Source of the DNA: Prorocentrum cordatum
Taxonomy: Eukaryota
NCBI GenBank assembly: GCA_963575745.1
Contig: CAUYUJ010000179.1
Coordinates: forward strand, 62,001-117,186
Reading direction: 5' to 3'
DNA: 55,186 nucleotides
Positions 2,627-32,220 of this stretch are shown in pieces. Both the position numbers and the translations under genes were made by a program. Position 1 is the stretch's first letter, and each line of letters starts with the position of its first letter. A model generated the notes under the pieces. The model ran no database searches. It saw only the letters and a list, made by a program, of their open reading frames with translations, and was not told the DNA's origin.

Positions 2627-3658
2627 GGGACTCCTTTGGCGCATACCTGTCGTTGTATGCCCCCCTGGGTAATGGTAGCCATCTTAATTACGTGGGGGGG
2701 GGCTGAATACCCCCACATGTTGTTCCTCGCGCGCGTGCGATTGCGATCTCAGCGCATCCCCGCCCTGACGTGCCACACCTCGCCAAAGCGTTACCATTAC
2801 GGGGGTCCTCCCCAACGATCGTGACCGGACAGTCTTACAAAACCATTCTCGCTCTCTTGGGGCTCTCTTGGGCGCATTGGGGGCATTTGTGGGACCGTCT
2901 TAGAGGCCATCAATCATCAACTCGCTGGAGGCCGAGCAAATGCCTCTTGGGGCCCTCTTGTACTCTTGGGCGCTCGTGGAGCGCTCTTGGGCGCTCTTGG
3001 GGCCGTCTTGTACTCTTCTTGGGTTTTCATTGAAGCTCTCTCGGACCACCTTGAAGCCATCTTGAGGCCCGAGGGACCCATCGGGGGCGCACAGGCACGA
3101 AGACAACACACATGAATGTTGTCAAGATTTTGGATGGATTTTGCCCTTCTGGGGGGTCCTTGGGAGGCTCCCGCGCGTGTCCTCCACTGCGCTGTAGGGG
3201 AGCAGGTCTGGGGGTACCGGCGCTGTGGGAACGTGGAGGGGGGGTAGGAGGTAGAGGGCTGGGGGGAACACGGCTGTGAGTAGCATCATCGTGCAGAGTG
3301 TAAGGGCGCACTGTTTACGACTTGGCGCGAGCAGGGGGGGCGCTTTTGTTCTTGTTTCTGTCAGAAGCCCTGCCAGGCAGCTAAAACGCATTCTAACACG
3401 CCTCATCATGCAGGTGGCATTGGGCGGAACTGCCGTTCGGTTGCCCATTGGCGACCTCAGATGTTGGGCAGTGACAAACAGTGCGTGGAGCAGGAGCGGT
3501 ACCAGCCTGGTATGTTTCCTCCCCCAGTCGGCTATGATGCGTGCTGCGACGATCCTTCTGACTCGTGCCATGCTGTGTGCGTGCTGGCAGGGTAGGCCTC
3601 GAGCAGGACGCCACTGCTGTAATGTCATGTTGCTGTGTGCATTCATGCAGACACAGTA

Positions 3659-4434
3659 TATCCAGCTGCCAAAGGCAATTCCGCCACCGTGTCAGCGTAG
3701 TATTCTTGGTGGTGGCTATTGGAGAAAACACGGGAGGCCGTCACTTCTGACAACTCGGGCATCTCGAAGGCCTTGCGAGCATGTTGGGTGCCTTTTGTGG
3801 GGCTCTTGGGAGCGCCTCAGGGGTGCTTCGGAGGCTCTTGGGGGGCTCCTTGGGCCGTCTGAGGGTGCTCTTGGGCCATCTGGGCACTTTCGAAGTCCGT
3901 TTCGGGGGGCTATCTGTAGCATTGGGGCCCTCTTTTTGGGCTTCGAGGGCCGTCTGAAGGCTCCAATGTGCCGACCCAGGGTCCTCTTGGACCGCTCGTG
4001 GGCCATCTTGGAACCCTCTTGCGCCGCCTGGGGGCCCTCTTGAGGCCTTCGTGGGCCGTCTTGAGGCCATCTTGGAGGCGTCTTGGGCCGCCTTTAGCTC
4101 ACGGACGCCCGAAACTGTGAGAATTCGAACATCCATCACACACCGAAGGAACGCACATGGGTTTAGCCTCTTCTGACAATGCTGGAGGCTCCTTTCGAAC
4201 CCCCTTGCGCCGTCTTGAGAGTCTATTGCAGGCCATCTTGTACAGTCTTGAGACTATATCGGGCCGTCTTGGAGACATATCTCGGGCCATCTTGGTGGCC
4301 TTGGAGGCTTTCCTGGGCCATCACGTCGAGGCACCTAGGGAGCCTCGGGAGAAGGGTGTGGCCCTTTGAAGACCCCTGCCAGGCAGCGCTTGGTATTCTT
4401 CCACACCTCAACGTGCCAGGGGCACGGTGGCGGA
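3659..4434 (-). mobile_element. Family A non-autonomous element (Helitron/Helentron-like), copy A1
   Basis: Left end: tatccagc, hairpin tgcc-aaa-ggca, then IR tccgccaccgtg (3680-3691). Right end: cacggtggcgga (4423-4434). Interior is ggcctcttgg-type low-complexity DNA. Confidence 0.75.
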
Positions 4435-5262
4435 TTATCCAGCTCTTACGGGAGGTCCCGCCACCGTGCCTGGTTGCAGGCATGAAGGTTATTTGATGTT
4501 CTTTGGGATCTCGTGGGAGGCCTTTCGGGTGCCCCTTGGAGGCAGTCTTGGGGCCTCTCGGGGGTAGTTTTGGGGCCTTTCGGGGCATGTGTTGGGCCTC
4601 TTGGGGGCCTGTTGGGGCCTCTTGGGGGCCTTTCGGGGCCCCCGGGGGCCTCCTGGGGGCCTCTTAGGGCGGAAGGATCGGATTTTCGGTTCGTGTTCTC
4701 TCTCTCTTGGGCCTCTGTTGGGGACTTCTTGGGGCCCTCTGGGGCTTTCCTGGGCGCCTTGGCCGTCTTGGGGGGCTCTTAGGCAGTCTTGGGGCCCTCT
4801 TGGAGGCATCTTGGGCCGTTTTGGAGTGGTCTTGGTACGGCCTCTTGGGCCGTCTGGGAGCGTCGGGAAGCCGAAAATGCGATACAGCCAACATCTTTTC
4901 AACAACCACAGGAACACCATGTTTTTTTTTGCCTCTTGGGGCCCTCTTGGGAAGCCTCCTGGAGGCCTCTTGGGGCGTCTTGGAGGCCTCTTGGGCCATC
5001 GGAGGGCATCTTGGGCGTCTTCGAGCGATCGTTCGGCGACTCGGGGCCCTCTTGAACCGTCTTGAGGGCCTCCTGGGCCATCACTGAGGCTTTGGAGTTC
5101 CAGGGAGGCGCAATCGTCGCCCAGGGACCCCCCAGAAGTAGGGGTGGTGCAGATGGTTGGGTGCTTCCCGCGGAGGTTTTTTTTTAAAAAGACTACAGAA
5201 AATCCACCAGGCAGCCTTTGGTATTTTTCCAAGCCTCAACGTGCTGCAGGCACGGTGGCGGA
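4435..5262 (-). mobile_element. Family A element, copy A2, fused head-to-tail to A1
   Basis: Starts ttatccagc directly after A1. A 15-bp IR ccgccaccgtgcctg (4458-4472) pairs with caggcacggtggcgg (5247-5261). Its last ~45 nt resemble those of A1 (cctcaacgtgc...cacggtggcggattatc). Confidence 0.75.
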
Positions 5263-7941: not shown

Positions 7942-8491
7942 ATGACACCTCCGCCGTCAGCCTCGGCGGCCCGGGGGCAGTCCCTGGCGTGCCGGCCGCG
8001 CTCGGCGGTGTGCCAGTCGGCAGCGCAGGCTTCTCGCCAGGCGAGTCGCCGCCGACATCGGTCGAGAGACACCGCTCCTGCTGCAACCATCAGGAGCTGC
8101 GGAAACATGAAGCAGTGGAGTGCGGCTTTGAGCTTGCTCCGCGATGTGTCACAGTCTCGCACACGAGCGAGTGCAGCCCTTTACACTGCTGTCATTGGGG
8201 CCTGCGGAAGGGGGAAGGAGTGGCAGCAGGCGCTGGGATTGCTGAGTGAGTTCTTGGAGGCAGAGCTGGAGCTGGACGCAACAATCTGCAGTGCTGGTAT
8301 CGGCGCATGCGAGAAGGTTGGGGAGTGGCAGCAAGCATTGTTGTTGCTCGAGGACATGGGTGACGCGAACTTAGAACAGGACGTCATAAGCTTCGTTGTT
8401 GGACTCAGCGCGTGTGCGAAGGGTAGGCAGTGGCGGCAGGCATTGATGTTGCTCAGAGAAATGGATGAAGCATTATTTGAGCCTGATTTTA
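7942..8491 (+). CDS. PPR protein paralogue 1, coding segment 1 (N-terminal extension plus 4 PPR motifs)
   Basis: 35-aa repeats such as YTAVIGACGRGKEWQQALGLLSEFLEAELELDATI. ATG 7942 aligns with ATG 23120 of paralogue 2. Preceded by a long pyrimidine tract and CAG at ~7880. Confidence 0.88.
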
Positions 8492-9070
8492 TTGTAGTGG
8501 CCTTCGGCCAGTGCCGCCGATCCGGGGCGCTCCGACTGATGTGATCCTTCTTCGCCCTCGTCCCTCCTCTCTTTTTCCCTCCCCTCCTCTCACTCAGCAT
8601 TTATCCAGTGGCCGTCGGCCTATCCCGCCACCGTGCGTGGGTGGTGGGTCAGAGGCCTCATGGATGCTGGTTGGGATCTCGTGGTTGGCTGGGACTTCTG
8701 GGGGCCTCTTGGGCGCCTCTTGGGGCTTCTTGGGGGCCTCTTGGGCCTCTTGGGGCCACTAGAGGGCCTCTTGGGGGTCTCTTGGGAGCCTCTTGGGGCT
8801 TCTTGGGGGCCTCTTCTGCGCCCCTTGGGGCCTCTTGGAGGCCTCCTCGGAGCCTCTTGGTGCGGGAGGGGTGGTACTCGAGTTCGGAACCCCCTCGGAG
8901 GCCACGATCCTTGTGAGGGGTGTCAAAAAACGCATCCGCCGGAAACTCGCACCCCCCCCCCCCACCCCCCCTTCCCCGGCAGAGCCACCCCGGCAACCCC
9001 CCCAGAGGCTGAGGCTCAGCCTCGAGGCTGTAGCTGAGACTCCTTGAAACTCACACGCCGGATCGGCGGA
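8492..9070 (-). mobile_element. Family A element (579 bp) inserted in the PPR1 coding sequence; candidate TE-derived intron
   Basis: Removal gives GAT TTT ATT AGT CAT AGT GCC GCC ATG (DFISHSAAM), the uninterrupted peptide of paralogue 2 at ~24545-24571. Hairpin ggcc-ttc-ggcc, IR ccgccgatccgg (8514-8525) / ccggatcggcgg (9058-9069), cacacgcc motif. Confidence 0.85.
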
Positions 9071-10013
9071 TTAGTCATAGTGCCGCCATGAGCGCGTGTG
9101 GATCATGTGGGCGATGGCAGCAGGCGCTCTTGCTGCTCAGCAAATTATTGGGAGTGCGGCTGAGGCCAGACGTAATCGCCCTCAATGCCGCGATAAGCGC
9201 GTGCGAGAAGGGAGAGCAATGGCAGCAGGCGCTGTTGCTACTTCGAGACGTAAGTGAACTGAGACTAGAACTGAACGCCATTGGGTGTAGCGCTGGAATC
9301 AGTGCTTGCGGGAAATGTGGGCAGTGGCAGCGAGCTTTGTCGCTGCTCGACGAGATGCGGGAGGCGAGTTTGGAGCCCACTTTGATCAGCTATAATGCTG
9401 CAATCAGCGCGTGCGCAGAAGGCGAACAGTGGCAGCACGCACTACTGCTGCTCAGTGATGTGCTCGAGGCGAATCTGGAAGTGGACGTAATCGGCTGCAG
9501 CGCTGGAATTAGCGCGTGCGGAAATGGTGGAGCTTGGAGGCAGGGTCTGTCGCTGCTCCGCCACATGCAGGGAGCACAGTTGGAGCTGGGCGTCGTCAGC
9601 TACAGCGCCGGAGTCAGCGCATGTGACAGAGCTGGCCAGTGGCAACAGGCGCTGATGCTGCTCAGAGAGATGGGAGACGTCAGAGTGCAGCCCAACGTGG
9701 CGAGCTACGGCGCGGGGATCAGCGCGTGCGAAAAGGGGGGCCAGTGGCAGCATGCGCTTTCGTTGATCAGGGGAGCTCGCTCGCTGCTGGACGTCGGCTG
9801 CTTCAATGTCGGAGTCCAAGCATGCGGAAGAGACGGACACTGGCAGCAGGCGCTGCTGCTGCTCAGTGAGCTGCGGGCACTGCGGCTGGAGCCCGACATC
9901 GTCAGCTACAGCGCTGCAGTGAGCGCGTGCGGAAACGGCTGGCAGTGGCAGCGCGCGCTTCTTCTGCTAGCTGAGATGGTGGAGGCTAAAGTGGAGCCAG
10001 ACGCCATCCTAGG
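9071..10013 (+). CDS. PPR protein paralogue 1, coding segment 2 (9 PPR motifs)
   Basis: ORF 9088..10047 has tandem YNAAISAC..GEQWQHALLLLSDV..LE.DVI motifs and is in the same frame as segment 1. Confidence 0.95.
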
Positions 10014-10176
10014 GAGCCCCAAGGAACGGGTGAAACGCGCACACTAACTCGTCGATCCTTATCTTCTGCCTGCTCCCAAGGCAGCAGTATTTTGAGGGAG
10101 CCTGGGGGTGTGGGAGGAGAGAACTCGTCAAGTTTATGCAGATTTCGTCGCCTGCTTTTTCTGCCCCCTACATCAG
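10014..10176 (+). other. Probable spliceosomal intron with non-canonical GA donor (GA...AG, 163 nt)
   Basis: AGG|gagcc...pyrimidine tract...catcag|C TTT AAT restores the frame between ORFs 9088 and 10136. Homologous donor (aggg agcc, ~25697) and acceptor (tcgcc.gct..ttctg.cccc...cag, ~25852) regions exist at the same position in paralogue 2. Confidence 0.65.
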
Positions 10177-10804: not shown

Positions 10805-11019
10805 CAGGGGCGGGAAACGGAGGACCATGGTAAGTGGGGAGCGGAGGATCTAGGGGAGGTGGGGCAGGGAGGCGAAGGGGCTAGCGCGAGAAGCAGCAGA
10901 AGGATGGAGAGTAGGCTGAGGATGATGACTATGGTGGTGCTGGTGGTCGTGAAGGTGGTTGTGGTGATGATGTTGTTGACGTTGATGCTTATGTCGATGC
11001 CGATATCGATGTTGCTGCT

Positions 11020-11833: not shown

Positions 11834-11855
11834 TTTTTGTTGTTGTTGCTGTTGT

Positions 11856-11886
<31 letters not shown>

Positions 11887-11890
<4 letters not shown>

Positions 11891-13822: not shown

Positions 13823-14040
13823 TTGTTGTTGTTGTTGTTGTGGTTGTTGTTGTTGTTGTTGTTGTTGCTGTTGTTGATGATGATGTTGTTGCTGCTGTTG
13901 TTGTTGTTGTTGTTGTTGTTGGCGTTGTTGTTGTTGTTGTTGTTGTTGATGCAGTTGTGGTTGTGGTTGTGACTGTGGATGTTGTTGTTGTTGCTGTTGT
14001 TGTTGTTGTTGTTGTTGTTGTTATGATTTTTGGTTGTTGA
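13820..14040. repeat. (GTT)n microsatellite
   Basis: Direct reading. Confidence 0.95.
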
Positions 14041-14077
14041 TGCTGCAGACGAGAGCGAACAGTCTTAAACTGATTGT

Positions 14078-14710
14078 TGGTGAAATTTCATTTGTAAAGA
14101 ACTATGGTTGTTGATCCCCCTGCGGTAACACAAGTCATTTTCAATCGAAATGCCCATTCTAGGGCTCGCTCCTTGTTTTTACGAGGGAAACTCTTGGGTG
14201 TCAGATGGCGCCTCCAGTTTACAACAACAATGGTTCCCGCCTAGTACTTCATGACATTATTGAGACGTCGGGCTTTCGCTAAGAACTTCGCAGTTCATTC
14301 ATACGCCGCGCCCACGACACTCAGCAATCACGCTCTCGCTGTGGACTTCCTCGCGATTTGCTTGGGGATCGAACTATCGCTGGAGACTTCCCCCCTGGCC
14401 GTCTGGGATCGCCCGCCCGACCCGCCCCGTAGAGACCGCCCGCCCGACCCGCCTGTCTGGTTTTGCCGATTGTTTTCCTACTTCAACCCCCTCCTGCTAA
14501 TACCTCTTGTGATTGAGCCATCCTTCTCCCTTTCCGCTGTTCCTTCCATCTTCCTCCCTTCGCGGTTTTAGGGGCTGCGCCAACTACACATGGGAGGTAA
14601 GGAAGATCTATTCCCAGGGGGGGGGGTACGATCATTGACGAAGAGGGCGGGTATTCATTTTGGGATATTCCCCAATCAGAGCTTGCCTCTAAAGGGGTCC
14701 TAGCGGATTC
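14078..14710. mobile_element. Family C element; uninterrupted homologue of the split element at ~45157-50155
   Basis: Blocks gttgatc.ccc, gggctcgc, gggtgtca, gtttacaacaacaa.gg.tccc, ctctcgctgtgga.tt.ct.gcg.ttt and gtctggtt.tg occur in the same order at ~45157-45187, 46776-46898 and 49853-50155. Confidence 0.65.
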
Positions 14711-14747
14711 ATATGGTTAGCTTAGCTGCGCCGCCGATTTTGGCGGC

Positions 14748-15270
14748 CCGCCCGGGTGCCGGGTACCTGGGTGCCCGGGTGCCCAGGTGCCCGGGAGCTG
14801 CGTTGCCGATTTCGGCACGCCCGGGTGCCTGGGTGCCCCATTGCCCTATAGCCCTATCGCCCTATAGCCCTATAGCCCTACAGCCCTATAGCCCTATAGC
14901 CCTCTAGCCCAATAGCCCAATAACCCTACAGTCCTATAGCCCTATAGCCCTATAGCCCTCCAGCCCTCTAGCCCTATAGCCCTATAGCCCTCCAGCCCTC
15001 TAGCCCTCTAGCCCTCTAGCCCTCTAGCCCTCTAGCCCTCTAGCCCTCTAGCCCTCCAGCCTATAGCCCTATAGCCCTATAGCCCAATACCCCGATAGCT
15101 CTATAGCCCAATAGCCCAATAGCCCTATAGCCTCATAGCCCAATAACCCTATAGCCCTATAGCCCTACAGCCCTATAGCCCTATAGCCCTATAGCCCTGG
15201 CCCTACGGGCCAACCGCCCAAAAACCCTATAGCCCGGTAGCCCCATAGCCCTAGAGCTCTATAGCCCCAC
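14748..15270. repeat. 9-bp minisatellites (cccgggtg-like, then ccctatagc)
   Basis: gccctatagccctatagccc.../gccctctagccctcta... repeated dozens of times. Confidence 0.95.
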
Positions 15271-16055
15271 GGCCCCGCGTTTGGGCGACTGCCGCTGGTC
15301 CCGGTACGCTTTGCCTCTGCACGCCTGTTGTGCCATTGCGCCGCACTTGTCGACCCGTGCAGGTCCGGCACTGCCCACTGGGTACGCTCGAGCACCCTCC
15401 GTACACATCCGCTCTGGTCATGATCCCTTCTCGTTTCTCCTCGGTGCCCACGTCGGCCTGGCCCCCCTTCGGCTCCCCCTTCAGGGCTGCCCCCCGTGAG
15501 TCGTGCAGTGCGGCTCACTACGACTGAAACCTGCCCGCTCTGCTGTTGCCGAGCTGGGCCTGGCGCGCGGTCTCTGCTTCCATCTCCAACCGCTTTGCTT
15601 TGCTGACTCCGCCGCGCTGCCGCGCGCGTGCTGCGACGCCAACATTAATAGGCGGGAACTCAATTTTCAAGGGAACCACCCTTCATCTTTCGGGTTGTAA
15701 GGAGTGCGCCAAGGCGCGGTTTCTAACATCCGAGGACGTGCCCAGCGACGGCCCCGCTTTGAAAACGAATCGGCCTCTATTCGTGTGGCCGTTGCGCAGT
15801 CTTTGACTTTTGGTCACAAGAGCAGTCATCATATCAAGCGGTAGTCCCGTGTGGAAAAGGAACCGCCCTCCATCCGTGAAGTCCTTGCACGAGTGTGCAT
15901 TCGTGGCACTATTTTGAGACAGTCCTGGGCGAGAACAACAACTTGCAAAGGATATGCCCTCTATAAGTGTGTTTGCATACACTTATTTATATTTCACACA
16001 TATTTATGTATACATCCATACATACACATATCTATATACATATATATATATACAC

Positions 16056-16091
<36 letters not shown>

Positions 16092-16094
<3 letters not shown>

Positions 16095-17175
16095 CGAAGG
16101 CTTACGGTCGGTGCCGCCGACCCTGAGAACGACGAAGATGAAAACGAGGGGGGGCAGGGGGAGGAAGATGAGTTGGAGGTGGAGAAAGGGCGGTGTAGGT
16201 GGATGAGGGAGGAGGGTGGGGAGAAGGATGTGGAGGAGAAGCAAGATGAGGAGAAGGAGGCAGAGGAGAGCAGAGGGGGGAGGAGGAGGAGCATGATGAG
16301 GAGGAGGAGGAGGAGGAGGAAGAAGAGGAAGAGGAGGAGGCCAGAGGCTTTCTTGGGACGGCCTGGGGCTCTCTTGATCTCCTCTTGCGCCGTCTCGAGG
16401 CACTCTTGGAGGCCTCCTGGGCAATTTGGGGCTCTCCTGGGCTGTCTTGGGGCCGTTTTGGGCCCCCTTGGGAGCCTCTTGTGGCCTCTTGGGGCTTCTT
16501 CGGGGCCTCTTGGGGGCCTCTTGGGGCTGTGAGCTCGAAACGTCCATTCGGGTCCCCCGTCTGGGCACTCTCCTGGAGCCGTCTTGGGGGCCTCTTGGGC
16601 CGTCTTGGGGGGCGATCTTGGGGGCCTCTTGGGCCGTCTTGGCGCGTCGGGAAGCAGAAGAGGCAAGAACGCCAAAATCTTTCAACAACGTATGGGAAAT
16701 CAATGAATTTCGCCTCTTGGGGCTCTCGTGGGAAAGCTCCTGGAGGCCTCTTGGGGCGCTTTGCAGGCTGGGCCGTCTGGAGGCCGTCAAGGCGTCTTGG
16801 ACAGATCGTTCGGCGATTCGGGGTTCTCTTGGACTGCCTTTGGGGCCTCTTGGGGCACTCTTGGTCCGTCTTGGGGCTTTTTTGGGCTCCCGGACTCCCA
16901 GGGGGGCGTCGTATCTGACCCCCCCCCCGGGGATCCCCCCCCCACCCCCCCACCCCCTGGCGCGGAGGGGGGCTTCCCTTCGACTCAATTACGACGTTGC
17001 TCAACTTTGCTTTGGCTGGCGCGCTGAGGAGGTCCCTGGGAAAGGGGAGAGTTTCGACGAGCCCAGGGAAAGGTGGGAGGCAGGGAAAGGGGGCGACAGA
17101 GACGACGACCAACGAATGACGGAAATGACGACTTGAACGGACAAGCCCCTCACACACGCCGACAGGGTCGGCGGA
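16092..17175 (-). mobile_element. Family A element inserted in a TA-rich microsatellite
   Basis: Left: ttgcgaaggcttacggtc plus IR ccgccgaccctg (16114-16125). Right: cacacgccga plus cagggtcggcgga (17163-17175). The TA/TACA-rich host continues on both sides. Confidence 0.8.
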
Positions 17176-17379
17176 TATTTATACATACGCACATATTCTC
17201 CCAATCAGGATTCGCCTTGGAGGCCCTTACTTGTTTGTGAGAAACCAGTGGGTGCCTGACGCGGTCGCGCTGGGGTTCCTCGAGGTTCCCAGGTCTCGTT
17301 TTCTCGCCCTGGGGGTTCCTCTGGGGTCCCAGGGTCTGTTTCCCTGCAAGGGCCTTGGGTTCCCCCTCCTTGTTTCCCT

Positions 17380-17650
17380 ATCAGGGTTCGTCAGGGTCCC
17401 TGGTCTTGTTCTTTGCTTGGGCTCCTCGGGCCTCCGATTCCCTGGTCTTGTTCTCTGCTTTGGTTTCTCGGGTTCTCAGTCTTGTTCCCTGCTCTGATTC
17501 CTCGGTGTTCCTGGTCTTCTTCCTTGCTCCAGTACCTCGGGTTCCCTAGTCTTGTTCTTTGCTTGGGTTCCTTGGGTTCCCGTCTTGTTTCCTGCTGGGG
17601 CTCCTCGGGTTCTACAGTCTTGTTCTTTGCTTGGGTTTCTCGGGTTACCT
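17380..17650. repeat. Degenerate ~30-40-bp minisatellite (tcttgttctttgcttgggtt...)
   Basis: Motif recurs at ~17404, 17446, 17479, 17550, 17583 and 17618. Confidence 0.8.
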
Positions 17651-18049
17651 GGCGTTGCAAAGCGTTGCCAAGCAAAGCCAAGCACTGCGCCCGTGCAATG
17701 GGAACCTTTCCCCTAATTGTGATCGCGCTGGGTTCGTATATCTGATGGCCTTCGGCCCACCCCGCCACTTCTGGATCAGAGGACTCGCGGATGCTGCTCA
17801 GGGTTCCGTGGCCTGGGTTCTGGACCAGAGGACACACGTGGTACCGAAGTGGTATCCATTGAGTCAGATCGATCCTATCAGGCGTAGATCCTTGGAACCT
17901 GGGTTGGGGGTCAGGAGCAATATGCCTTATGTGGTATCCCAGTGGTACCACTTGAGGGATTTCGATCGAAGGAAGAGGAGGAGGAAGAGGAGGCGGAAGA
18001 GGAGGAGGAGGACGGGTGGGGGGAGGATGGGAGAATATACGAGTCTTAG

Positions 18050-18260
18050 CCCCTTAGCGGAGCGGGCTTCGCTAATGGGAGCGAAGCAGCGGGAACTCCG
18101 TTGTGTGAGGCCACTTCGCGGAGGGCCGCTCCGCTAATGGGAGCGAAGCAATCCGAATCCTTCTGTTCGAGGCCAATTGGCGGAGCTTCGCGTCGCTAAT
18201 TGGGGATCAAGCAAACCGAATCTTTTCGCCCGAGGCAAATTAGCGGAGCGCCGCTCGGCA
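18050..18260. repeat. Short ~62-bp tandem repeat (cgctaatgggagcgaagca...gaggcca)
   Basis: Three copies at ~18070, 18132 and 18194. Confidence 0.75.
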
Positions 18261-18524
18261 AAACTGGACGCGACAAAACCTGGGAGCCTCCGGGTCCAAG
18301 CCTTAATCATCTTCAGGAGTGAGTACAGAGGAATTCAGCCAGGGACCCTAGGACTTGCCCACTCCGTGCCTCAGGGCACGGTTGCGGATGTATTATGTTC
18401 AGCGTGCGCGGCGCCAAGGCGAGAGTCCCATATCGAACATGATCGACCCACGAACCCGGAGAGGAATATGGATATGTAAGGCATGGCCACGCTTCCAAGA
18501 CACCTGATTGGGCGACGGGCAAAT

Positions 18525-19252
18525 GCAATGCTGAATGTATCGGTTTTGATGTACCGTGCCGAGGGCTGTGCTGTGCTGCGCCGTGCTGAATTGCGATGTG
18601 CCATGCCACGATTGTGCTCTATAGCTTTGTGGATCGAGTCCTCCTTTGCATCCAAGCTCGAGCTGCCTGGGCACATAGTAACTGCCCCAGAGCTAGTTGA
18701 CACGAGGACATGCCAGGAGGACGCGCCGTGGAACGTCCCAAGGGACGCGCCAGGCGACTTGCCAGGGGACGTGCCATGGGGACGCACTGCGGGACGTGCC
18801 AAGGGGACGCGCTACGGAACGTGCCAATGGACGTGCCGCGGGACGTGCCAGGGGACTCGCCGCGCGACGTGCCGGGGGGACTCGCCACGGGACGCGCCAC
18901 GGAACGTGCCAGGGAACGTGCCAGGTTGCAATGCTAAGTGTATCGATCTTGATGTACCGTGCCGAGGGCTGTGCTGTGCTGCGCCGTGCTGAATTGCGAT
19001 GTGCCATGCCACGATTGTGCTCTATAGCGTTGTGGATCGAGTCCTCATTTACATCCGAGTCCTGACCGAACTGATCTGGATCTTGTGCTCGAGCTGCCTG
19101 GGCACATAGTAACTGCCCCAGAGCTAATTGACACGAGGACATGCCAGGAGAACGCGCCGCAGAACGTCCCAAGGGACGCGCCAGGCGACGTGCCAGGGGA
19201 CGTGCCATGGGGACGCACTGCGGGACATGCCAAGGGGACACGCTACGGAACG
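18525..19252. repeat. Direct duplication (~300-330 bp, period ~400-420) containing a gggacgtgcca 11-mer minisatellite
   Basis: gcaatgct...gatgtaccgtgccgagggctgtgctgtgctgcgccgtgctgaattgcgatg occurs at ~18525 and ~18928. Confidence 0.92.
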
Positions 19253-19259
19253 TTAAAAT

Positions 19260-20375
19260 AGGTGGTCCTTGCTCGGGGCAACCATGTTAGATATCCCCCT
19301 GGATGGCCTGGACACCTGAACAACTTGGTGCCAGCTCGGGAAACCATGTTAGATACACTCCTGAGTAGCCTGGACACGTTTAACCACGTGGCCCTTGCTC
19401 AGAACAATCATGTTAGATACCCCCCTGGGTGGCCTGGATACGTAAAAACACGTGGTTCAAGGTCGGGACAACCATGTTGGATATCCTCCTGGGTGGCCTG
19501 GGCATGTTAAAACATATGGTTCCAGCTAGGGACCACCATGTCAGATACCCCTCTGGGTGGCCTGCACACGTCAAAGCACGCGGTCCAACCCATGTTAGAT
19601 ACACCCTTTGGGCGACCTGGGCACGTGAAAACACGTGGTTCCAGCGCGGGACCACCATTTTAGACACCCTCTGGGTGGCCTCGACAGGTGAAACACGTGG
19701 TTCCAGCTCGGGACCGCCATGTTAGATACCCCCCTGGGTGGCCTGTACACGTGAAAACACGTGGCTCCAGTTCGGGACCACCATTTTAGACACCCCCTGG
19801 GTGGTCTGAACACGTGAAAGCACGTGGTTCCAGCTTGGGACCACCATGTTAGATACCCCACGGGCGGCTTGGACGTTTAAAAGCACGTGGTTCCAGCTCA
19901 GGACCACCATGTTAGATACCCCCCTGGGTGGCGTGGACACGTGAAAACACGCGAGGTTCCAGCGCGGGGCCACCATGTTAGATACACCCTCTGGGCGACC
20001 TGGGCACGTGAAAACACGCGGTTCCAGCGCGGGACCACCATTTTCGACACCCCCTGGGTGGCCTCCACAGGTGAAACACGCGGTTCCAGCGCGGGACCAC
20101 CATTTTCGACACCCCCTGGGTGGCCTCGACAGGTGAAACACGTGGTTCCAGCTCGGGACCAACATGTTAGATACCCCCTGGGTGGCCTGCACACGTGAAA
20201 ACACGTGGCTCCAGCGCGGGACCACCATGCTAGATACCCCCCTGGGTGGTCTGGACACGGGAAAACGTGGTACCAGCTCGGGACCACCATGTTAGATACC
20301 CACCTGGGTGCCCTGGACACGTGAAGCGACGTGGTTCCAGCTCGGGCAGAACATGTTAGATATCCCCCTGTGTGG
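19260..20375. repeat. ~60-64-bp tandem satellite, ~18 diverged copies
   Basis: Unit cacgtggttccagctcgggaccaccatgttagatacccccctgggtggcctggacacgtgaaaa. Confidence 0.95.
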
Positions 20376-23119
20376 CCAAGGAAATCTTCGAAAAACAAGC
20401 GAATTAGTCGAGACATCCTCGAAATTCCTGCGCGCGGGACGCGGCACGCGCGAGACATCCTCGGAATTCTTGCGCGCAGGACGCTTTTCCGCGTCGCGGT
20501 CGGGGCTCCAGATTTGTTTTTTTGTTTTTTTTGTTTTTGAGGATTCTGCTCAAAATGCCCCGCATTTTTTTTACGAAGGGAAGCGGTGGTCTGCGGACCC
20601 CTTTCTGTACCGAGGATCCGAGATGGGAGGCAAACTTTCCTCGAACGGGCACGCGAAAAACGCACTTGCTCAACTGACATTTCACACTTTACTTTCTGTA
20701 ATTTATCGCAGAATCATTCGCCGGCCTTACAGAAATCTGGCCCAGGGGACAGGTTTACCTACTAAAAGAGAACCCTGGGCCGGCGCCCTTTCTGGGGAAA
20801 ATATTGTTCTCCATGCGTGTAGCTGGTGGACCTGGCAAGTTTCAAGATGGAAAACCGTGAGGAAGTCTGAGGCGAAATGCCCTGCCCGCCCTAACGACAC
20901 GTCTGGTGGTGCGACAGGGTGGAGGTGGTTGTGAGGAGGACGGATGGAGGTCACTCCTCTTCTTTCCCGTTTCCCTCCCTCCTCCCCACTCCTTCTCCTC
21001 GTCCCGCTGTCGTCACTCTGCTTCGTCCCTCCCTCCCCCATTTCTCCCTTCTTTCCTTCCTCCGAAGCCGCCGCCCCGTCTCGAGGTTCTGGGCGCGGAT
21101 GCCAGGTAGCCGCGAACCTCGCTCGGGGCAGCTGCCATGCGCGTCGGCCCGCCCCCTTGCGGCGTGCGGGCCCTGCCGCGACGAGCTTCCTCCGGCCGGC
21201 GCCGCTGCCAGCCCAGCCGAGGCCAGAGTGTCGTGCGCCCGCAGGGAGACTTCGGGTCGGCCGTCACCCGCACATGTAGGATGTCGCCGCCCTGGTCCGC
21301 GCTTGCGGCCCTCCTATCCTCGCCATCTTCGTGCCCCTGGTGCCGTGCATGCCCAGACCCAGCCGCCAGGAGTGGCTGGCAGTGCCGACGCCGACGGCTA
21401 TGAGGCGGTGCTGAGGGCGGCGGACCCGACGTTCGTGGCGGGGTGCACGGACCTTTCCGGGTCCGTTGGCGCCGCTCCAACATGGTTTTCTACGTTGTCG
21501 TTCTCGCCGTCTTCGACGCTGCCGCCGTCGACGCCTTCTTGGATTGGACCGCCGAGACCCCAACCATGTCCGATCGTGGACGGCATTGGGGAGGTGCTAG
21601 ACGCTCACGCGGGTGACCCCGTCCCACTTGACGCCCATCGTTGTGTGCCACTTCGAGACCGCGCTGCTGGTCCCGTACGTGCCGATGGGCTTGCTCCTCA
21701 CGCTGTCCCCAGGCGGGGCGGGCCTCCAGCCCATGCGCCGCCTCCACTCCCGACGCGGAGCGTGCCGCCGCAGCCAGCTACGTGGTGCCACCGATGCTGC
21801 TGCTGGCGAGGCGGACGATGAGTTTGCTGGGCTGGCGCGTGCAGCCGCTGTGGCCGCGCGCGACCATGGCCAAGAGCCAGAGTGCTGCCGTGGCTGACGC
21901 AACGTCCGGAGTAAGTGCTGACTCGACTGAGCCTCGCGGTGGTCGCGGCGCGGTGGTGGGCAAGCCCCTCCCCCCAAGCGTCCCCTGCTGGGCCTCGCCG
22001 GGCCCCACCCCGCAGACGTCGCTGGAAAGGGCGACCGAGGCTGCAGCCGATGCCTCGGAGCTCCGGGTGGCCGTCGTCGCAACAGCCCCCGTCTCTCCTG
22101 GCGCTGGCGCTGCTCTGGAGTTTGCGGCCGCCTCTGCATAGCTCCCGGTGGCCGTCGCAGAGCCTGTTCCTGTCGACCACAGCACATTGGATCGTGAGAA
22201 GCGTGATGTCGGATGCCATGGTTGCGTGCTGGAGCTCCTCTCCAGCTGGCCGCCTTGAAGCAAATATGTCGTGGAGTTGAGAATGAGCGTGCAGTGGAAG
22301 TATATTAAGCTACGCCGCGTCCTGGTATGTTTTTTCCTGCGCCTCCTCCACCTCGGCCCCCCTCATTTGATGTGGATGCCGCGCTTGTTGAAATTATTGT
22401 GGCTGCAGCTGGCACCGTGCCGCAATGGCAGCAGCTTTGCTCCTTCTCCCTAGTCCAGCTCGAAGCATTATCATTCCCTCCCTCCGCCTCTTCTCCACAG
22501 TGCCCTTGTACGGCACGCCACGCGAGCATTGTATGCCTTGATCCGTCTGTCGTCGGCTTTGTGAAGGGAGGTGGACTGTGGGTCAGGTCTCGGGGTGCTC
22601 GCGCGGTCCTCTGCACATCCCTGCGCCTCCAGCCTTTAAGCCCGGAGGGGCCGGTGTGGAGGTTGTCGGTCTGTTTCCCAGTCTTCTCCTCCCTTTCGTT
22701 CTTTTCAACTTTTGCGCTCCCCCCCTCCACCCCTCCTCCCGAGTGCTCTGGACGGGCACCGCAAACCATCTGTTGCCACTTGATCGTTTTATTGCCTATT
22801 ACGGAGGGAGGGGATTCATGTGAGCATTGGGAGGGTCTGGACTTTTTGCTTCTGTCCGCCCTGTCGCGGGGGTCCCACCGTACTGTGCTGTGATTGGTTC
22901 TTGGTGCCCGTGCAGGACTAATTTTTCTGGTACCCTGCTAGCTGCAGCGCCGCACTCCGCTGACAGGCCATTGACTTCAACAGCTTTGCAATCCGAAACA
23001 ACTCCCTCCCTCCCTCTCCGCCCTCTTCCCCCTCTCCGTCCCTGTCTGCTCCGTGGCGCAGCCGCTCTCATGCATTTCGGGCCGTCTCAGTCCTGTAGCC
23101 TTCCGCCGAGGGTCGCTCG

Positions 23120-23511
23120 ATGTTGTCTCCGCTGTCAGACCTGGCAGCCCAGAGGCAGCAACTTGTGGGCGGGCAGCACGTGGAGTGTCAGTCGGCAGCC
23201 CAGATCCCTCTCACAGCTAGTTGGCGCGGTTCCCGGTCGAGCGGCAGTTCTCCTCTAGCAGCCATCAAGAATTGCGGAAGCACAGCGCAGTGGACAACGG
23301 TGCTGAGTTTGCTCCGTGATGTGTCACAGTCTCGCGCAGAAGCTGGCGCAGTTCTCTACACTGCTGCGATTGGCGCTTGTGGAAGAGGGAAGGAGTGGCA
23401 GCAGGCTTTGGGCTTGCTGAGCGACTTCCGAAACGCAGAGTTGGAGCTGGACGCAAAAATCTGCAGTGCTGGGATCGGCGCGTGCGAAAAGGTTGGGGAG
23501 TGGCAGCAGGC
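23120..23511 (+). CDS. PPR protein paralogue 2, coding segment 1
   Basis: LSLLRDVSQSRAEAGAVLYTAAIGACGRGKEWQQALGLL aligns with paralogue 1 segment 1. Confidence 0.88.
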
Positions 23512-24396
23512 GTTAGTTTCATTGCTGCGCTCACTCCGCCAGCCCATGCTGTATCACCGCTGGCACTTACCTGTGTGATCGCGGGGGCTCAGAAGTCGGT
23601 GGGTCACGAGCTTTTCCCTGGGCTGTCGCGTGAACATTGCTTGGAAGAGAAGTATTGGCAGGGTAGTTGCAAGGCAACGCTCAATGAAGCACCCCCATCG
23701 AAGTTCCGTCGGTGCATCCTGTCGCGGTGCCCAGGTTATGGGTCAGAGGCGTTATGGATGCCTCGCGGCTTCTCTTGGGATGCTTCTCGGGGGGCCTCTT
23801 GGAGGCCTGCGTATTCGGGGCCTCTTGGGGCCTCTTGGGCCCCCCCCCTGATTGGGGGCCTCTTGGGGCCCTGAGGGCTTCTGGGGACCTCGTGAGGCCT
23901 CTTGGGGGCTTCTGGGGGGCTCGTGGGTCCTGCTGGCGGTCTCGGATGCCCCCTTGGGGACCTCTTTGAGATTTCTTGGGCCGTCTTAAGGCTCTCTTGG
24001 GAGCCTCTGGAGCCGTCTTGGAGCGATCTCGGAGGCCTCTTGGGCCGTCTTGAGAAAACGCGAGGGCTCAAATGTTTCAATTTTGCGTCGTGAGGCTCTC
24101 TTTCGGGTCCTCTTGGACCGTCTTGGGTGTCTCTTGGGCCGTCTTGAACTCATCTTGCGCTCTGGTGACGTCTCGGGGCCCTTGAAGCTCCCTTGGGGCG
24201 CTCCTGGGGCTTTAGTGGGTGTCCAGAAGCCAGCGCCCAGGAGTTCCGGCATCTCTGAACCGACCTTGCTAGGACCTTGCCGGGACCTGGGCGAGTCTTC
24301 TTCCCCCAGGGGCCGCTGCGCGCACGATCTCGTAACATACAGATACTCTGGAACTCCTACCAGAGATTCTAGCACGCCTTTGGCCCGTTGGGCCAG
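23512..24396 (+). other. 885-nt insertion absent from paralogue 1; candidate GT-AG intron derived from a family A-like element
   Basis: GC|gttagt...ggccag|C GAC TTT TTG CTC GAG gives QQADFLLED versus QQALLLLED in paralogue 1 (same length). The interior has ggcctcttgg cargo; the right end has cacgcc and the palindrome tggccc-gtt-gggcca. Confidence 0.7.
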
Positions 24397-25489
24397 CGAC
24401 TTTTTGCTCGAGGACATTCGCGAGGCGAACTTAGAGCAGGACGTCATAAGCTTCGTTGTTGGAGTCAGCGCGTGTGCGAAGGGCGGTCAGTGGCAGCAGG
24501 CGTTGATGTTACTCAGGGACATGGAGGAAGCAAACTTTGAGCCTGATTTTATCAGCCACAGTGCCGCCATGAGCGCGTGTGGGAGATGTGGGCAGTGGCG
24601 GCAGGCGCTCTTGCTTCTCAGAAAGTTATTGGGGGCGGGGCTGCGGCCAGATGTCATCGGCTTCAATGCCGCGATAAGTGCGTGCGAGAAGGGAGAGCAA
24701 TGGCAGCAGGCCCTGTTGCTCCTTAGAGAAGTCGGTGAATTCAAGCTCGAGCTGAACGCCATTGGGTGCAGCGCTGGAATCACTGCGTGCGGGAAATGTG
24801 GACAGTGGCAGCACGCCTTGTCGCTGCTTGGCGAGATGCGGGAGGCGAGGTTGGAGCCCAATGTCTTCGGCTACAATGCTGCAGTCAGCGCGTGTGCGGA
24901 AGGCGAACAGTGGCAGCAGGCGTTGTTGTTGCTCAGCGAGATTTTAGAGGCGAAGCTGGAAGCGGACGTCATTGGCTGCAGCGCTGGGGTCAGCGCGTGC
25001 GGGAATGGCAGAGCTTGGCAGCAGGGTTTGTCGCTGCTTCGCCACATGCGGGGAGCACAGTTGGAGCTGGGCGTTGTCAGCTACAGCGCTGGAATCAGCG
25101 CGTGTGAAAATGCCGGGGAGTGGCAGCAGGCGGTGATATTGCTCAGGGAGATGGGCGAAGTGAGAGTGCAGGCCAACGTGGCAAGTTACGGCGCGGGAAT
25201 CAGCGCGTGCGAGAAGGGGGGCCAGTGGCAGCACGTGCTTTCGTTGATCAGGGAAGCTTACTCTCTGGTTGACGTCGGCTGTGTGAACGTTGGAATCCAA
25301 GCGTGCGGCAGAGACGGGCACTGGCAGCAGGCGCTGATGCTACTCAGCCAGCTGCGGGCGCTGCGTCTGGAGCCTGACGTCGTCAGCTACAGTGCTGGAG
25401 TGAGCGCGTGCGGGAACGGCGGGCAGTGGCAGCGCGCGTTAGGATTGCTACTTGATATGGTGGAGGCGAAGGTGGAGCCAGACGCCATC
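24397..25489 (+). CDS. PPR protein paralogue 2, coding segment 2 (10 PPR motifs)
   Basis: PPR portion of ORF 24050..26026, colinear with paralogue 1 from LLED to VEPDAI. Confidence 0.95.
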
Positions 25490-25490
25490 A

Positions 25491-25693
25491 TTCGGAGAGC
25501 AAAAGGCTGCGTAAACATAATTTCTCGGAGGTCCACGCCGATTTCTTGGATCGGCACTGGGGCCCCCCTGGCGGCGCCTCTGGTGGCGCCCCTGGCGCGC
25601 TCTGCGCGCCAGGGTGGGGGGTCCAGCGCAGATCCAAGAAATCCGCGCGGACCTCCGAGAAATTATGCTTGGGCAGTTCCTCATTGCTTAAGT
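25491..25693. mobile_element. MITE-like fold-back element at the exon/intron junction of PPR2
   Basis: Perfect 19-bp IR cataatttctcggaggtcc (25516-25534) / ggacctccgagaaattatg (25649-25667), a 13-bp inner IR gatttcttggatc / gatccaagaaatc, and imperfect outer arms. Absent from paralogue 1. Confidence 0.85.
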
Positions 25694-25852
25694 TACAGGG
25701 AGCCTGAAGGGATAGGCTCAAACACCCTGATTAGTCTTCGATCCCTAGCATCTGCATCCTGGGGGAGCTTGGGGGCTGGGTGGTGGGGGACGGGGAGATG
25801 CAGGAAGCTCAGGCCGCTTCTGTCGCCCGCTCCTTCTGGCCCCTCATGTCAG

Positions 25853-26480
25853 CTTCAATGCTGGAGTCAGCGCGTGCCAGAAAGGCCGCGTTTGGAGACA
25901 TGCGCTGTGGCTCCTGAGAGAAATATGCGAGGTGCATTTGGAGCCCGACATCACGGGCTACAGCGCTGCAATCAGCTCCTGCGAGAAAGCCGGGCACTGG
26001 CAGCAGGCGTTGTTGCTGCTCTTTGAATCGATGGAGCGGAAGCTGGAGCCGAACGAAATTAGCTACAGCGCTGGAGTCGGCGCGTGCGGAGCCAGCGGGC
26101 AGTGGCAGCAGGCGCTGTCTCTGCTCAGGGACATGCGTGACGCCAGGCTGTCGAACGCCTTCGGCCACGGTGCCGGGATCCGCGCGTGCGGGAGCGCCCA
26201 CGTGTGGTCGCGGGCGATCTCGCTGCTCGGGGAGGCGGAGGCGCTGAGCTTGGAGCCGGACGTCATCTGCTACAGCGCCGGGGTCAGCGCATGCGAGGAC
26301 GGCATGCAGTGGCAGCACGCGCTGTCGCTGCTCGACGGGGTGTCGCGGGCGAGGCTCGGGCCAGACCTCATCTGCTGCAGCGCCGGGATCGGCGCGTGCG
26401 CAGTCTGCGGGAGGTGGCAGCGTGCGCTGTCGCTGCTCTGCGGGATTCGGGAGGCGGAGCTGGCGCCCAACGCGCTAAGC
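25853..26480 (+). CDS. PPR protein paralogue 2, coding segment 3 (6 PPR motifs)
   Basis: After the acceptor tgtcag|, FNAGVSACQKGRVWRHALWLL continues into ORF 25932..26483. Colinear with paralogue 1 segment 3. Confidence 0.92.
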
Positions 26481-26529
26481 TGATGTGTGGGCATGGGGGT
26501 GGATGAAGGTGGGGGGAGCGGGGGGGATG

Positions 26530-26695
26530 GGAGGAGGAGGAGGAGGAGGAGGAGGAGGAGGAGGAGGAGGAGGAGGAGGATGACGAGGAGGAGGAGGAGG
26601 AGGAGGAAGAGGAGGAGGAGGAGGAGGAGGAGGAGGAGGGGGAGGAGGGGGAGGAGGGGGGGGACGAGGCGGCGGAGGGGGAGGAGGATGAGGAC
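26530..26695. repeat. (GAG)n microsatellite
   Basis: Direct reading. Confidence 0.95.
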
Positions 26696-26916
26696 GACCG
26701 TGGTCGATCGCAACCACTTCGGTTCGATCGCAACCACTTGGGGCGGATTCCAACCGTATGCGACTGGCCGAAGTGGGTGCGACGTTTAGGGTTCGCTTAC
26801 ACATTGTTTCGATTAGCAGAGGCTCTCCACGAGAGCTTCTGGAATGGGTGGGCAGCCTTACGCTCATCGATGGAAGTTTCATAAAGTGGTGGCGATCGGG
26901 CCGATCGCAGACCACG

Positions 26917-31930
<5,014 letters not shown>

Positions 31931-31989
31931 GTCCTCGTTTTCCTCGTTCTCCACCTTCTCTTCGCGTTCCCGTCATGTCCTTCCTCCTT

Positions 31990-32220
31990 TTCGGAAGCTC
32001 CTCAGAAGCGCCTCAGAAGCTGCTCGGACGCTCCTCAGAAGCCCCTCAGAAGGTTCTCAGAAACTCATCGGAAGCTGTTCGGACGCTCCTCATAAGCTCC
32101 ATAGTGGCTCCCCACAAGCTCTTCAGAAGCTCCTCAAAAGCGCTTCAGTGTTCAGAGGCGCTTCGGAGGCGCTTCAGAAGCGCTTCAGAAGCTCATGGGA
32201 AGCGTTTCGGAGGCTCTGCA
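31990..32220. repeat. Degenerate 11-bp minisatellite (gctcctcagaa)
   Basis: agctcctcagaagcgcctcagaagctgctcgga... Confidence 0.8.

What the first reader, a model, noticed from the sequence alone, without database searches (positions are those of the whole stretch)
23512..24400. Reciprocal case: 885-nt insert in paralogue 2 removable as a length-neutral GT-AG intron
Seen: the insert is absent from paralogue 1 (QQALLLLED contiguous at ~8330-8355). The donor gttagt spans host sequence and the insert edge, and the acceptor cag lies 4 nt inside the insert's right end. Splicing gives QQADFLLED, with the same length and frame. The right end carries the cacgcc motif and minus-strand TC start of family A, with the same ggcctcttgg cargo, but its IR is only imperfect. 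Inference: two independent intron gains since the duplication, each using roughly one host and one element splice site.
Basis: partly seen in the sequence, partly recalled or inferred. Interest (0 to 1): 0.8.

Follow-up and report, generated by a model that had tools for sequence, protein, structure and literature searches.

The report
Non-canonical transposon-derived intron in PPR gene

Summary
The insert is real. Paralogue 2 carries 885 nt (23516-24400) that paralogue 1 lacks at 8340|8341. RNA contigs from three runs, plus one raw read, join 23515 directly to 24401. That gives QQALFLLED, not the predicted QQADFLLED.

All four well-supported junctions in the two paralogues lack G[T/C/A]..AG ends. 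Two of them sit at the same position in both copies, so they predate the duplication. This argues for removal from the RNA rather than for empty-site alleles.

The insert is a decayed member of a plus-strand-only element family. Its architecture is an AT(T) target repeat, a ~20-nt leader, a CCGCC... arm, a (GGCCTCTTGG)n core, and a ...GGCGG arm abutting the 3' edge. Four intact members lie in the window, including paralogue 1's reciprocal 579-nt intron.

The closest known kind is the Amoebophrya non-canonical introns/introner elements. Gain after the duplication is well supported for paralogue 1's intron. It is only moderately supported for this one, because no orthologue was found. Verdict: new member of a known kind, moderate interest.

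The parts
23060..23515 (+). Paralogue 2, upstream exon (at least this far 5'); ends with the codon TTA
   Evidence: RNA contigs X8 record 16, X1 record 4 and X5 record 10 cover 23060/23075/23071-23515 with 0 mismatches. The frame is that of ORF 23099..23578.
23516..24400 (+). 885-nt insert = non-canonical intron (GT..AC, phase 0), absent from paralogue 1 and from mRNA
   Evidence: Joint 23515->24401 in X5, X1 and X8 (1 contig each) plus 1 X12 read, 'both' = 0. No shift is possible. Depth is 0 in bin 23600-24243 in all 4 runs. Read-through meets a stop at 23576-23578.
23516..23547 (+). Decayed 5' end of the element: ~21-nt leader (no hairpin predicted) followed by a CCGCC-type left arm (23537-23547)
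   Evidence: Aligns in register with the 5' ends of four intact elements; CCGCC is invariant. The leader folds at 0 kcal/mol.
23706..23761 (+). Internal 'header' shared only with paralogue 1's intron (8612-8667), including GGGTCAGAGGCnnnATGGATGC at 23740-23761
   Evidence: 75% identity over 56 nt. The motif occurs 2 times in the window against 0.05 expected.
23789..24213 (+). Degenerate 10-11-nt repeat core, (GGCCTCTTGG)n
24373..24400 (+). Decayed 3' end: CACGCC (24373-24378), small hairpin GGCCC-GTT-GGGCC (24382-24394), right arm ...GCCAGCG, then AC
24401..25487 (+). Paralogue 2, next exon (PPR repeats)
   Evidence: Contigs. Pfam PPR_2 E = 3.1e-37.
25488..25848 (+). Older non-canonical intron of paralogue 2 (361 nt, 3-nt direct repeat TCA), homologous in position to 10005-10170
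   Evidence: Joint 25487->25849 in X5, X1 and X8 plus 2 X12 reads. The possible end pairs are TC..TG, CA..GT, AT..TC and TT..CA.
8340..8341 (+). Empty site in paralogue 1 that corresponds to the 885-nt insert
8491..9069 (+). Reciprocal case: 579-nt non-canonical intron of paralogue 1. It is an intact family member: ATT direct repeat, leader hairpin, 12-bp arms at 8514-8525 and 9058-9069.
   Evidence: Joint 8490->9070 with 'both' = 3 in X5, X1 and X8. The IR is reached by 0 of 500 shuffles. Fold.
10005..10170 (+). Older non-canonical intron of paralogue 1 (166 nt, direct repeat CATC)
   Evidence: X8 record 14 is contiguous across 10004|10171. No G[H]..AG placement exists.
16091..17174 (+). Intact family member in AT-rich, apparently non-coding flanks (ATATT on both sides; arms 16114-16125 and 17163-17174)
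   Evidence: RNA loose ends with several different flanks at 17175/17176.
3657..5261 (+). Two adjacent members of a sister subfamily (arms CCGCCACCGTG(CC) at 3681-3691/4423-4433 and 4458-4470/5249-5261), each followed by ATT

Best explanation
The 885 nt at 23516-24400 are a decayed copy of a non-autonomous, repeat-carrying mobile element family. It sits in a PPR codon of paralogue 2 and now behaves as a non-canonical intron.

Shown: the pre-mRNA product lacks exactly the inserted DNA, rejoining GCGTTA|TTTTTG in phase 0. The boundaries are GT..AC. The same is true, with other arbitrary dinucleotides, of three further junctions in the two paralogues.

Inferred:
(i) Removal happens at the RNA level by a splicing activity that does not need G[T/C/A]...AG ends, as reported for Amoebophrya non-canonical introns.
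(ii) In intact family members, the leader hairpin plus the 12-bp stem between the sub-terminal left arm and the terminal right arm place the two junctions side by side at a three-way junction.
(iii) In this old copy that structure has decayed, yet excision is still exact, so the stem is not the only determinant.
(iv) The element most likely entered paralogue 2 after the gene duplication (about 65%).
For: Insert and empty site:
- locate both. The spliced P1 and P2 proteins align with 389 of 502 identical columns, 2 gap columns, no stops, and no gap at the site.

Junction:
- One search shows 23515->24401 in 3 of 3 contig runs (3 studies) and 1 read in the raw-read run. It is not shiftable.

The runs behave as RNA:
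- 6 of 30 bins have zero depth in all four runs, including the insert's interior.
- X12 is strand-biased, as expected for a + strand RNA.

Non-canonical splicing is a property of these genes:
- 4 of 4 clean junctions lack G[H]..AG.
- 25488-25848 and 10005-10170 occupy the same codon position in both paralogues and share end sequences. They therefore predate the duplication and cannot be explained by empty-site alleles.

Family membership:
- Shared architecture.
- Header motif 2 times against 0.05 expected.
- Repeat core.
- 12-bp arms in two intact members, reached by 0 of 500 shuffles each.
- The same predicted three-way junction in both.
- Several different flanks at the element ends in RNA (table 7).

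Literature (passages seen):
- Farhat 2021 reports more than 60% non-GT-AG introns in Amoebophrya. Subsets of these carry 3-5-nt direct repeats and 8-20-nt inverted repeats.
Against: - No unspliced precursor reads and no DNA reads were seen for this locus. RNA-level removal of this particular insert therefore rests on analogy with the shared older intron.
- Raw-read support is a single read. The other three supports are assembled contigs.
- The insert itself has no direct repeat ('both' = 0) and no significant inverted repeat (34 of 500 shuffles). It also has no close copies in the RNA runs, so its family membership rests on register, motifs and core repeats.
- GT..AC has no known recognition logic.
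- Its header differs from paralogue 1's young element by about 25% (14 of 56 nt). That is not clearly less than the per-lineage share of the 31% four-fold-site difference between the paralogues. The insertion could therefore be as old as the duplication.
Confidence: 0.72

Rival explanations
1. One reading: a canonical GT-AG intron 23512-24396, with the donor spanning host and element and the acceptor inside the element, giving QQADFLLED.
For: GTTAGT at 23512 and CAG at 24394-24396 exist, and their use would keep length and frame.
Against: No contig or read shows 23511^24397. All 3 contigs and the 1 read show 23515^24401. The two products differ at 4 of 4 junction bases (GTTA versus CGAC), so editing or misalignment cannot reconcile them.
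Confidence: 0.02
2. DNA-level difference, not splicing. The window's copy is a gene disrupted by a transposon. The mRNA comes from an uninterrupted allele or a very recent twin copy with identical exons.
For: - A filled site compared with an empty-site transcript would give exactly this picture: exact absence, with short direct repeats at other sites.
- Dinoflagellate genes are often highly duplicated.
- No precursor or DNA reads were examined.
Against: - The two introns at the homologous position in both paralogues are removed in the same non-canonical, exact way. They predate the duplication.
- Three runs from three studies match the flanking exons at 0 mismatches over 750-765 nt.
- No near-identical protein, twin or otherwise, appeared in two protein searches; the best identity was 53%. 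This is weak evidence, because the window's own product did not appear either.
Confidence: 0.15
3. Polarity rival: the element was already present when the gene duplicated. Paralogue 1 later lost it exactly, for example by conversion with a processed copy. This would be one ancestral intron rather than a gain specific to paralogue 2.
For: - The insert's ends are decayed and it has no close relatives in RNA.
- Its header is about 25% diverged from paralogue 1's young element. That is comparable with the divergence since the duplication (four-fold p = 0.313 for both lineages together).
Against: - It belongs to a mobile family with members in non-coding flanks (16091-17174).
- Paralogue 1 kept its neighbouring older intron.
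- The Roy et al. preprint (passages) reports very high introner-driven gain rates in dinoflagellates.
Confidence: 0.33
4. Assembly artefact: the 885 nt were wrongly placed into the gene during assembly.
For: No independent DNA evidence was examined. The interior is repeat-rich.
Against: - The insert has unique flanking parts (23516-23705 and 24220-24400 have no other match in the window).
- It has clean single-base edges inside a codon-aligned site.
- It has the same architecture as four other elements.
Confidence: 0.03

Closest known systems
Non-canonical introns and introner elements of Amoebophrya A25/A120 (Farhat et al. 2021, PMC7789003; passages seen)
   Same: RNA-supported introns without GT-AG and with no dinucleotide signature. 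Subsets carry 3-5-nt direct repeats over the boundaries and 8-20-nt inverted repeats. They form repeated, strain-specific families and lack a transposase. A hairpin is proposed to bring the exon ends together. The mechanism is unknown.
   Different: - The IR motifs reported there start with TTA or TAT, and intron G+C is 44-46.5%. Here the arms start with CCGCC and the introns are 55-66% G+C.
- Here the left arm is sub-terminal, behind a ~20-nt leader.
- The elements carry a long (GGCCTCTTGG)n core and are 556-1084 nt long, against mean lengths of 120-240 nt there.
- The source organism is not established as Amoebophrya.
Dinoflagellate introner-like elements (Roy et al., preprint 10.1101/2020.10.14.339549; passages seen)
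   Same: DNA-transposon-like insertions create paralogue- or species-specific introns. The inverted repeat ends at the 3' boundary, flanked by short target duplications. There is an orientation bias.
   Different: There the TSD (GHNN) supplies a G[H] 5' splice site and the element end supplies AG. Here the 3' ends are AC, GG (or TT), TG and TA, and the excised piece equals the insert plus at most one repeat copy.
Identically repeated intron boundaries of core dinoflagellates (Mendez et al. 2015, PMC5032977; abstract and sections 11 and 15 read)
   Same: Short identical repeats at both intron ends that remain once in the mRNA. Three of the four junctions here have 3-4-nt repeats.
   Different: Those repeats contain the conserved AG|G. 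None of the four junctions here does, and the 885-nt intron has no repeat at all.
Nonconventional introns of euglenids (review PMC11282704, passages; PMC3935182 and PMC4770533 seen only as abstracts in the listing)
   Same: Variable non-canonical borders, TSD-like repeats, end-pairing structure, suspected MITE origin, unknown removal mechanism.
   Different: The usual CAG/CTG pairing at +4..+6 and -8..-6 is absent here (TCA and CCA). The closest named proteins are dinoflagellate, not euglenid.

Membership tests
Canonical / dinoflagellate spliceosomal intron (G[T/C/A]...AG, usually AG|G) | 5' end G[T/C/A] at the RNA-defined boundary | tested here: met
   GT at 23516-23517
Canonical / dinoflagellate spliceosomal intron (G[T/C/A]...AG, usually AG|G) | 3' end AG at the RNA-defined boundary | tested here: not met
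   AC at 24399-24400, with no alternative placement. The other 3 junctions also have no AG placement.
Introner-like element of the Roy / Huff type | One splice site recruited from the target duplication and the other carried by the element, giving G[H]..AG | tested here: not met
   The junction equals the insert's edges; no AG is used
Introner-like element of the Roy / Huff type | Member of a multi-copy, transposon-like family | tested here: inconclusive
   The architecture is shared with 4 intact elements and the header motif with one. This copy has no close relatives in the RNA runs, and no genome was available for a census.
Amoebophrya-type non-canonical intron / introner element (Farhat 2021) | RNA-supported junction without GT-AG | tested here: met
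Amoebophrya-type non-canonical intron / introner element (Farhat 2021) | Direct repeat of 3-5 nt overlapping the boundaries | tested here: not met
   'both' = 0 for 23515->24401; at best GTT/TTT match at 2 of 3 positions. Met by the reciprocal intron (ATT) and by the two older introns (TCA, CATC).
Amoebophrya-type non-canonical intron / introner element (Farhat 2021) | Inverted repeat of 8-20 nt between the 5' and 3' end regions | tested here: not met
   The longest perfect IR is 7 bp, reached by 34 of 500 shuffles. The imperfect CGCCAGCCCA/TGGGCCAGCG pair matches at 8 of 10 positions. The criterion is met by 8491-9069 and 16091-17174 (12 bp, 0 of 500 shuffles). Farhat also reports that most non-canonical introns lack such repeats.
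Amoebophrya-type non-canonical intron / introner element (Farhat 2021) | Host is Amoebophrya | not testable with these tools
   No genome is held. The best named protein relatives are various dinoflagellates at 53% identity or less. The G+C content and IR motifs differ from A25/A120.
Euglenid nonconventional intron | CAG at +4..+6 pairing with CTG at -8..-6 | tested here: not met
   TCA and CCA at those positions (sequence; the motif is taken from the review passages)
U12-type AT-AC intron | AT...AC termini | tested here: not met
   GT..AC
Group I / group II self-splicing intron | Match to a curated RNA family model | tested here: not met
   0 Rfam matches at gathering score in the whole window

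The most novel reading that the evidence does not exclude
A high-G+C dinoflagellate that is probably not one of the Amoebophrya strains where this was described removes intervening sequences exactly, whatever their terminal dinucleotides. It still does so for an old element whose direct repeat and end-pairing stem have decayed. Boundary choice would then rest neither on splice-site consensus nor on the hairpin alone. That implies a removal mechanism (a relaxed spliceosome or separate machinery) that 'remembers' insert edges. It also implies that gene models built with GT/GC/GA-AG rules are systematically wrong at such sites.
Probability: 0.3. Interest if true: 0.75.

Novelty: new member of a known kind. 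Interest (0 to 1): 0.45.

Why it matters
- This is a clean natural experiment. Two paralogues each carry a family member that the other lacks, and RNA shows that exactly the inserted DNA is taken out.
- It supports the transposon origin of non-canonical introns.
- It shows that the usual introner model, in which a splice site is borrowed from the target duplication, does not apply here.
- The decayed copy separates excision from the hairpin, which bears on the unsolved mechanism.
- On the practical side, annotation pipelines that accept only G[T/C/A]-AG would break or mis-frame such genes.

Tried and rejected
- Whole genome: none is held. No family census and no search for a twin locus were possible.
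- Orthologues for polarity: the metagenome scan gave 79 loci, all 53% identity or less and only PPR relatives. They were not used further.
- Protein searches: the 'longer' and 'near' searches found no near-identical product. I therefore found no deposited peptide with the junction and no evidence for or against twin copies.
- Earlier scan notes: 3 look-ups returned nothing.
- Rfam: no match.
- Duplex energies of the intron ends did not discriminate, with z between -2.5 and +1.0, because G+C-rich shuffles pair as well. I replaced this test with the longest perfect IR test.
- Whole-intron folding shows end pairing for 8491-9069 and 16091-17174 only, not for the 885-nt intron or the two older ones.
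- Leader hairpin: a 4-5-bp hairpin is predicted at the same place in 5 of 5 intact 5' ends. Only 1 of the 5 beats shuffles (3 of 200), so this is suggestive only.
- Helitron reading (insertion between A and T, sub-terminal hairpin): considered from recall and dropped, because the ends are not TC...CTRR.
- U12 and euglenid motifs: not met.
- Joints dropped: 12 of the 15 joints listed were set aside. They have sides of 20-30 nt, mostly 'between: not known', and link PPR repeats within or between the two paralogues. A further 27 joints were not shown by the tool.
- Pfam on 12 long ORFs found only PPR plus weak hits. The ORFs inside the insert are low-complexity translations and were not searched.

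Full report
**1. The observation**

The window holds two paralogous PPR genes on the + strand: P1 at about 7830-10800 and P2 at about 23060-26480. Pfam scores are PPR_2 E = 1.6e-31 for P1 and 3.1e-37 for P2. A self-comparison aligns them in four blocks:

| P2 | P1 | identity |
|---|---|---|
| 23103-23514 | 7925-8339 | 75% |
| 24401-24552 | 8341-8492 | 87.5% |
| 24551-25497 | 9070-10016 | 85% |
| 25822-26480 | 10147-10804 | 83% |

P2 therefore carries about 885 nt that P1 lacks. Reciprocally, P1 carries about 579 nt that P2 lacks.

- GTTAGT at 23512-23517.
- CAG 4 nt inside the right end.
- CACGCC at 24373-24378.
- Six exact GGCCTCTTGG copies.
- Only a weak end-to-end inverted repeat.

**2. The RNA test**

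One run search and one read-laying run (window 7500-26800; runs X5, X1, X8 as contigs and X12 as raw reads) were available.

- One contig in each of X5 (poly-A RNA), X1 and X8 joins 23515 directly to 24401. The contigs are 750-765 nt long, with no mismatch and sides of 255 nt or more. One X12 read does the same.
- The skipped piece, 23516-24400, begins GT and ends AC. It cannot be moved by a single base.
- The mRNA reads GCGTTA|TTTTTG, giving ...EWQQALFLLEDIR... against P1's ...EWQQALLLLEDMG.... Length is equal, with no gap and no stop.
- Unspliced, the frame stops at 23576-23578.

The runs behave as RNA:
- 6 of 30 bins have zero depth in all four runs, including the interior of the insert.
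- X12 is strand-biased as expected for + strand transcripts.

**3. These genes use non-canonical junctions throughout**

Besides 23515^24401, three clean junctions exist:
- 8490^9070: 3-nt ambiguity ATT.
- 25487^25849: 3-nt ambiguity TCA.
- 10004^10171: X8 record 14, 4-nt ambiguity CATC.

None of the allowed placements gives G[T/C/A]...AG.

I set aside 12 of the 15 joints listed. They have short sides and link PPR repeats within or between the paralogues. The tool did not show 27 more.

The introns 25488-25848 and 10005-10170 lie at the same codon position in both paralogues and share their end sequences. They therefore predate the duplication. Their exact, non-canonical absence from each paralogue's own transcripts cannot be due to empty-site alleles. 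This is the main reason to read the 885-nt case as RNA-level removal too. No precursor or DNA reads were seen for it.

**4. What the insert is**

Four intact elements with one architecture lie in the window, all on the + strand. They are 3657-4433, 4434-5261, 8491-9069 (P1's intron) and 16091-17174 (in AT-rich, apparently non-coding flanks).

The shared architecture, in order:
- An AT(T) repeat on both sides.
- A ~20-nt leader.
- A left arm beginning CCGCC.
- A long degenerate (GGCCTCTTGG)n core.
- A right arm ending GGCGG that abuts the 3' edge.

Supporting measurements:
- The 12-bp arms of 8491-9069 and 16091-17174 are reached by 0 of 500 shuffles.
- Both fold into the same three-way junction: leader hairpin, arm stem, and flank pairing.
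- All 33 exact GGCCTCTTGG copies are on the + strand, against 0.26 expected.
- RNA contigs and reads begin at 8490/8491 or end at 17175/17176 with several different continuations.
- RNA depth 13 nt inside P1's intron is 77-719, against 6-14 for P1's exon contigs, and mostly carries a variant base. The family is therefore multi-copy and its copies are transcribed.

The 885-nt insert aligns in the same register:
- TTA, then a 21-nt leader, then CCGCCAGCCCA at the 5' end.
- ...TGGGCCAGCGAC followed by TTT at the 3' end.

It shares an internal header with P1's intron alone. The motif occurs twice in the window against 0.05 expected, and identity is 75% over 56 nt. It also differs from the intact members:
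- Its leader has no hairpin.
- Its arms are imperfect; the longest perfect IR is 7 bp, reached by 34 of 500 shuffles.
- It has no direct repeat.
- No RNA from close copies covers its interior.

I read it as an old, decayed member of the family.

**5. Mechanism**

Shown: exactly the inserted DNA is absent from mRNA, and the terminal dinucleotides are arbitrary.

Inferred:
- Removal is a splicing-like RNA step that does not depend on G[H]..AG.
- In intact members the structure juxtaposes the two junctions.
- The decayed 885-nt copy and the two older introns lack any end pairing in the fold. The stem is therefore not a general requirement.
- What defines the edges remains unknown, as it does in the literature for Amoebophrya and euglenids.

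**6. Gain or loss**

P1's element is young. Copies at 95% identity or more exist in the RNA, while P1 and P2 differ at 56 of 179 four-fold sites. It was therefore gained after the duplication.

For the 885-nt insert the evidence is weaker. Its header is about 25% diverged from P1's young copy, which is not clearly less than the divergence since the duplication. No orthologue was found. I put gain after the duplication at about 65%.

**7. Comparison with what is known**

- **Amoebophrya A25/A120 (closest).** Farhat 2021, passages read. More than 60% of introns lack GT-AG, and subsets carry 3-5-nt direct repeats and 8-20-nt inverted repeats. Families are strain-specific and the mechanism is unknown. 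Differences here are the arm motifs, the G+C content (the window is 0.55 or higher in 21 of 27 bins), the sub-terminal left arm with leader, the repeat core, and the size.
- **Dinoflagellate introner-like elements.** Roy preprint, passages read. These use a GHNN duplication as the 5' site and an element AG as the 3' site.
- **Crypthecodinium-type repeated boundaries.** These contain AG|G, which is not met here.
- **Euglenid nonconventional introns.** They are similar in behaviour, but their CAG/CTG motif is absent here and the proteins point to dinoflagellates.

Three literature searches listed no paper describing such non-AG, exact-excision introns in a high-G+C dinoflagellate:
- A 2024 review (passages) attributes 'other' boundaries essentially to Amoebophrya.
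- Farhat's Table 1 (passage) lists 9.3% 'other' for one non-Amoebophrya column.
- The annotation pipeline of the one high-G+C genome I read about accepted only GT/GC/GA donors (passages).
- I did not open any supplements.

**8. Verdict**

The specific GT-AG reading is refuted. This is a new member of a known kind, of moderate interest. Its main value is as a paired natural experiment and as a warning for gene modelling.

Noticed in passing
window 3657-5261: Two adjacent elements of a sister subfamily (arms CCGCCACCGTG(CC)/..CACGGTGGCGG), head to tail. The second starts at the ATT that follows the first. A solo, degenerate left end of this subfamily also sits inside both PPR introns (about 8601-8640 and about 23700-23745).
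   Followed up: partly
window 16091-17174: Intact family member outside any recognised coding sequence, flanked by ATATT on both sides. RNA contigs and reads stop matching at 17175/17176 with at least four different continuations, which indicates many genomic copies.
   Followed up: partly
window-wide (4595-51010): All 33 exact GGCCTCTTGG copies, in six clusters, are on the + strand. So are all four intact elements and both PPR genes. This suggests an orientation bias relative to transcription or replication.
   Followed up: no
window 8491-8579: RNA depth at the 5' end of the element family is about 10-50 times that of the host exon. At 8504 it is 77/385/719 in X5/X1/X8, against 6-14 for the exon contigs. 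This could come from many transcribed copies or from stable excised RNA.
   Followed up: no
window 26481-26482 and about 26500-32000: P2 transcripts leave the genome at 26481, and contigs continue for 92-410 nt that do not lie in 7500-26800. The next genomic bases are GA (GATGTG), a dinoflagellate-type donor. They are followed by a purine-rich (GGA)n tract of several kb with GC skew up to 0.77 and G+C down to 0.39. The partner exon was not located.
   Followed up: no
window 10005-10170: One of the five equivalent placements of this intron has AT..AC ends (ATCCTA...CCCTAC). Its paralogous counterpart 25488-25848 has no such placement, so I did not treat it as U12-type.
   Followed up: partly
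window 51552-52199: About eight tandem units spaced 86-89 nt apart share a 37-nt match with 8886-8922 inside P1's intron.
   Followed up: no
window 12417-12427 and 13322-13332: Identical 30-nt contexts 905 nt apart point to a direct repeat in the low-G+C stretch 12-14 kb.
   Followed up: no
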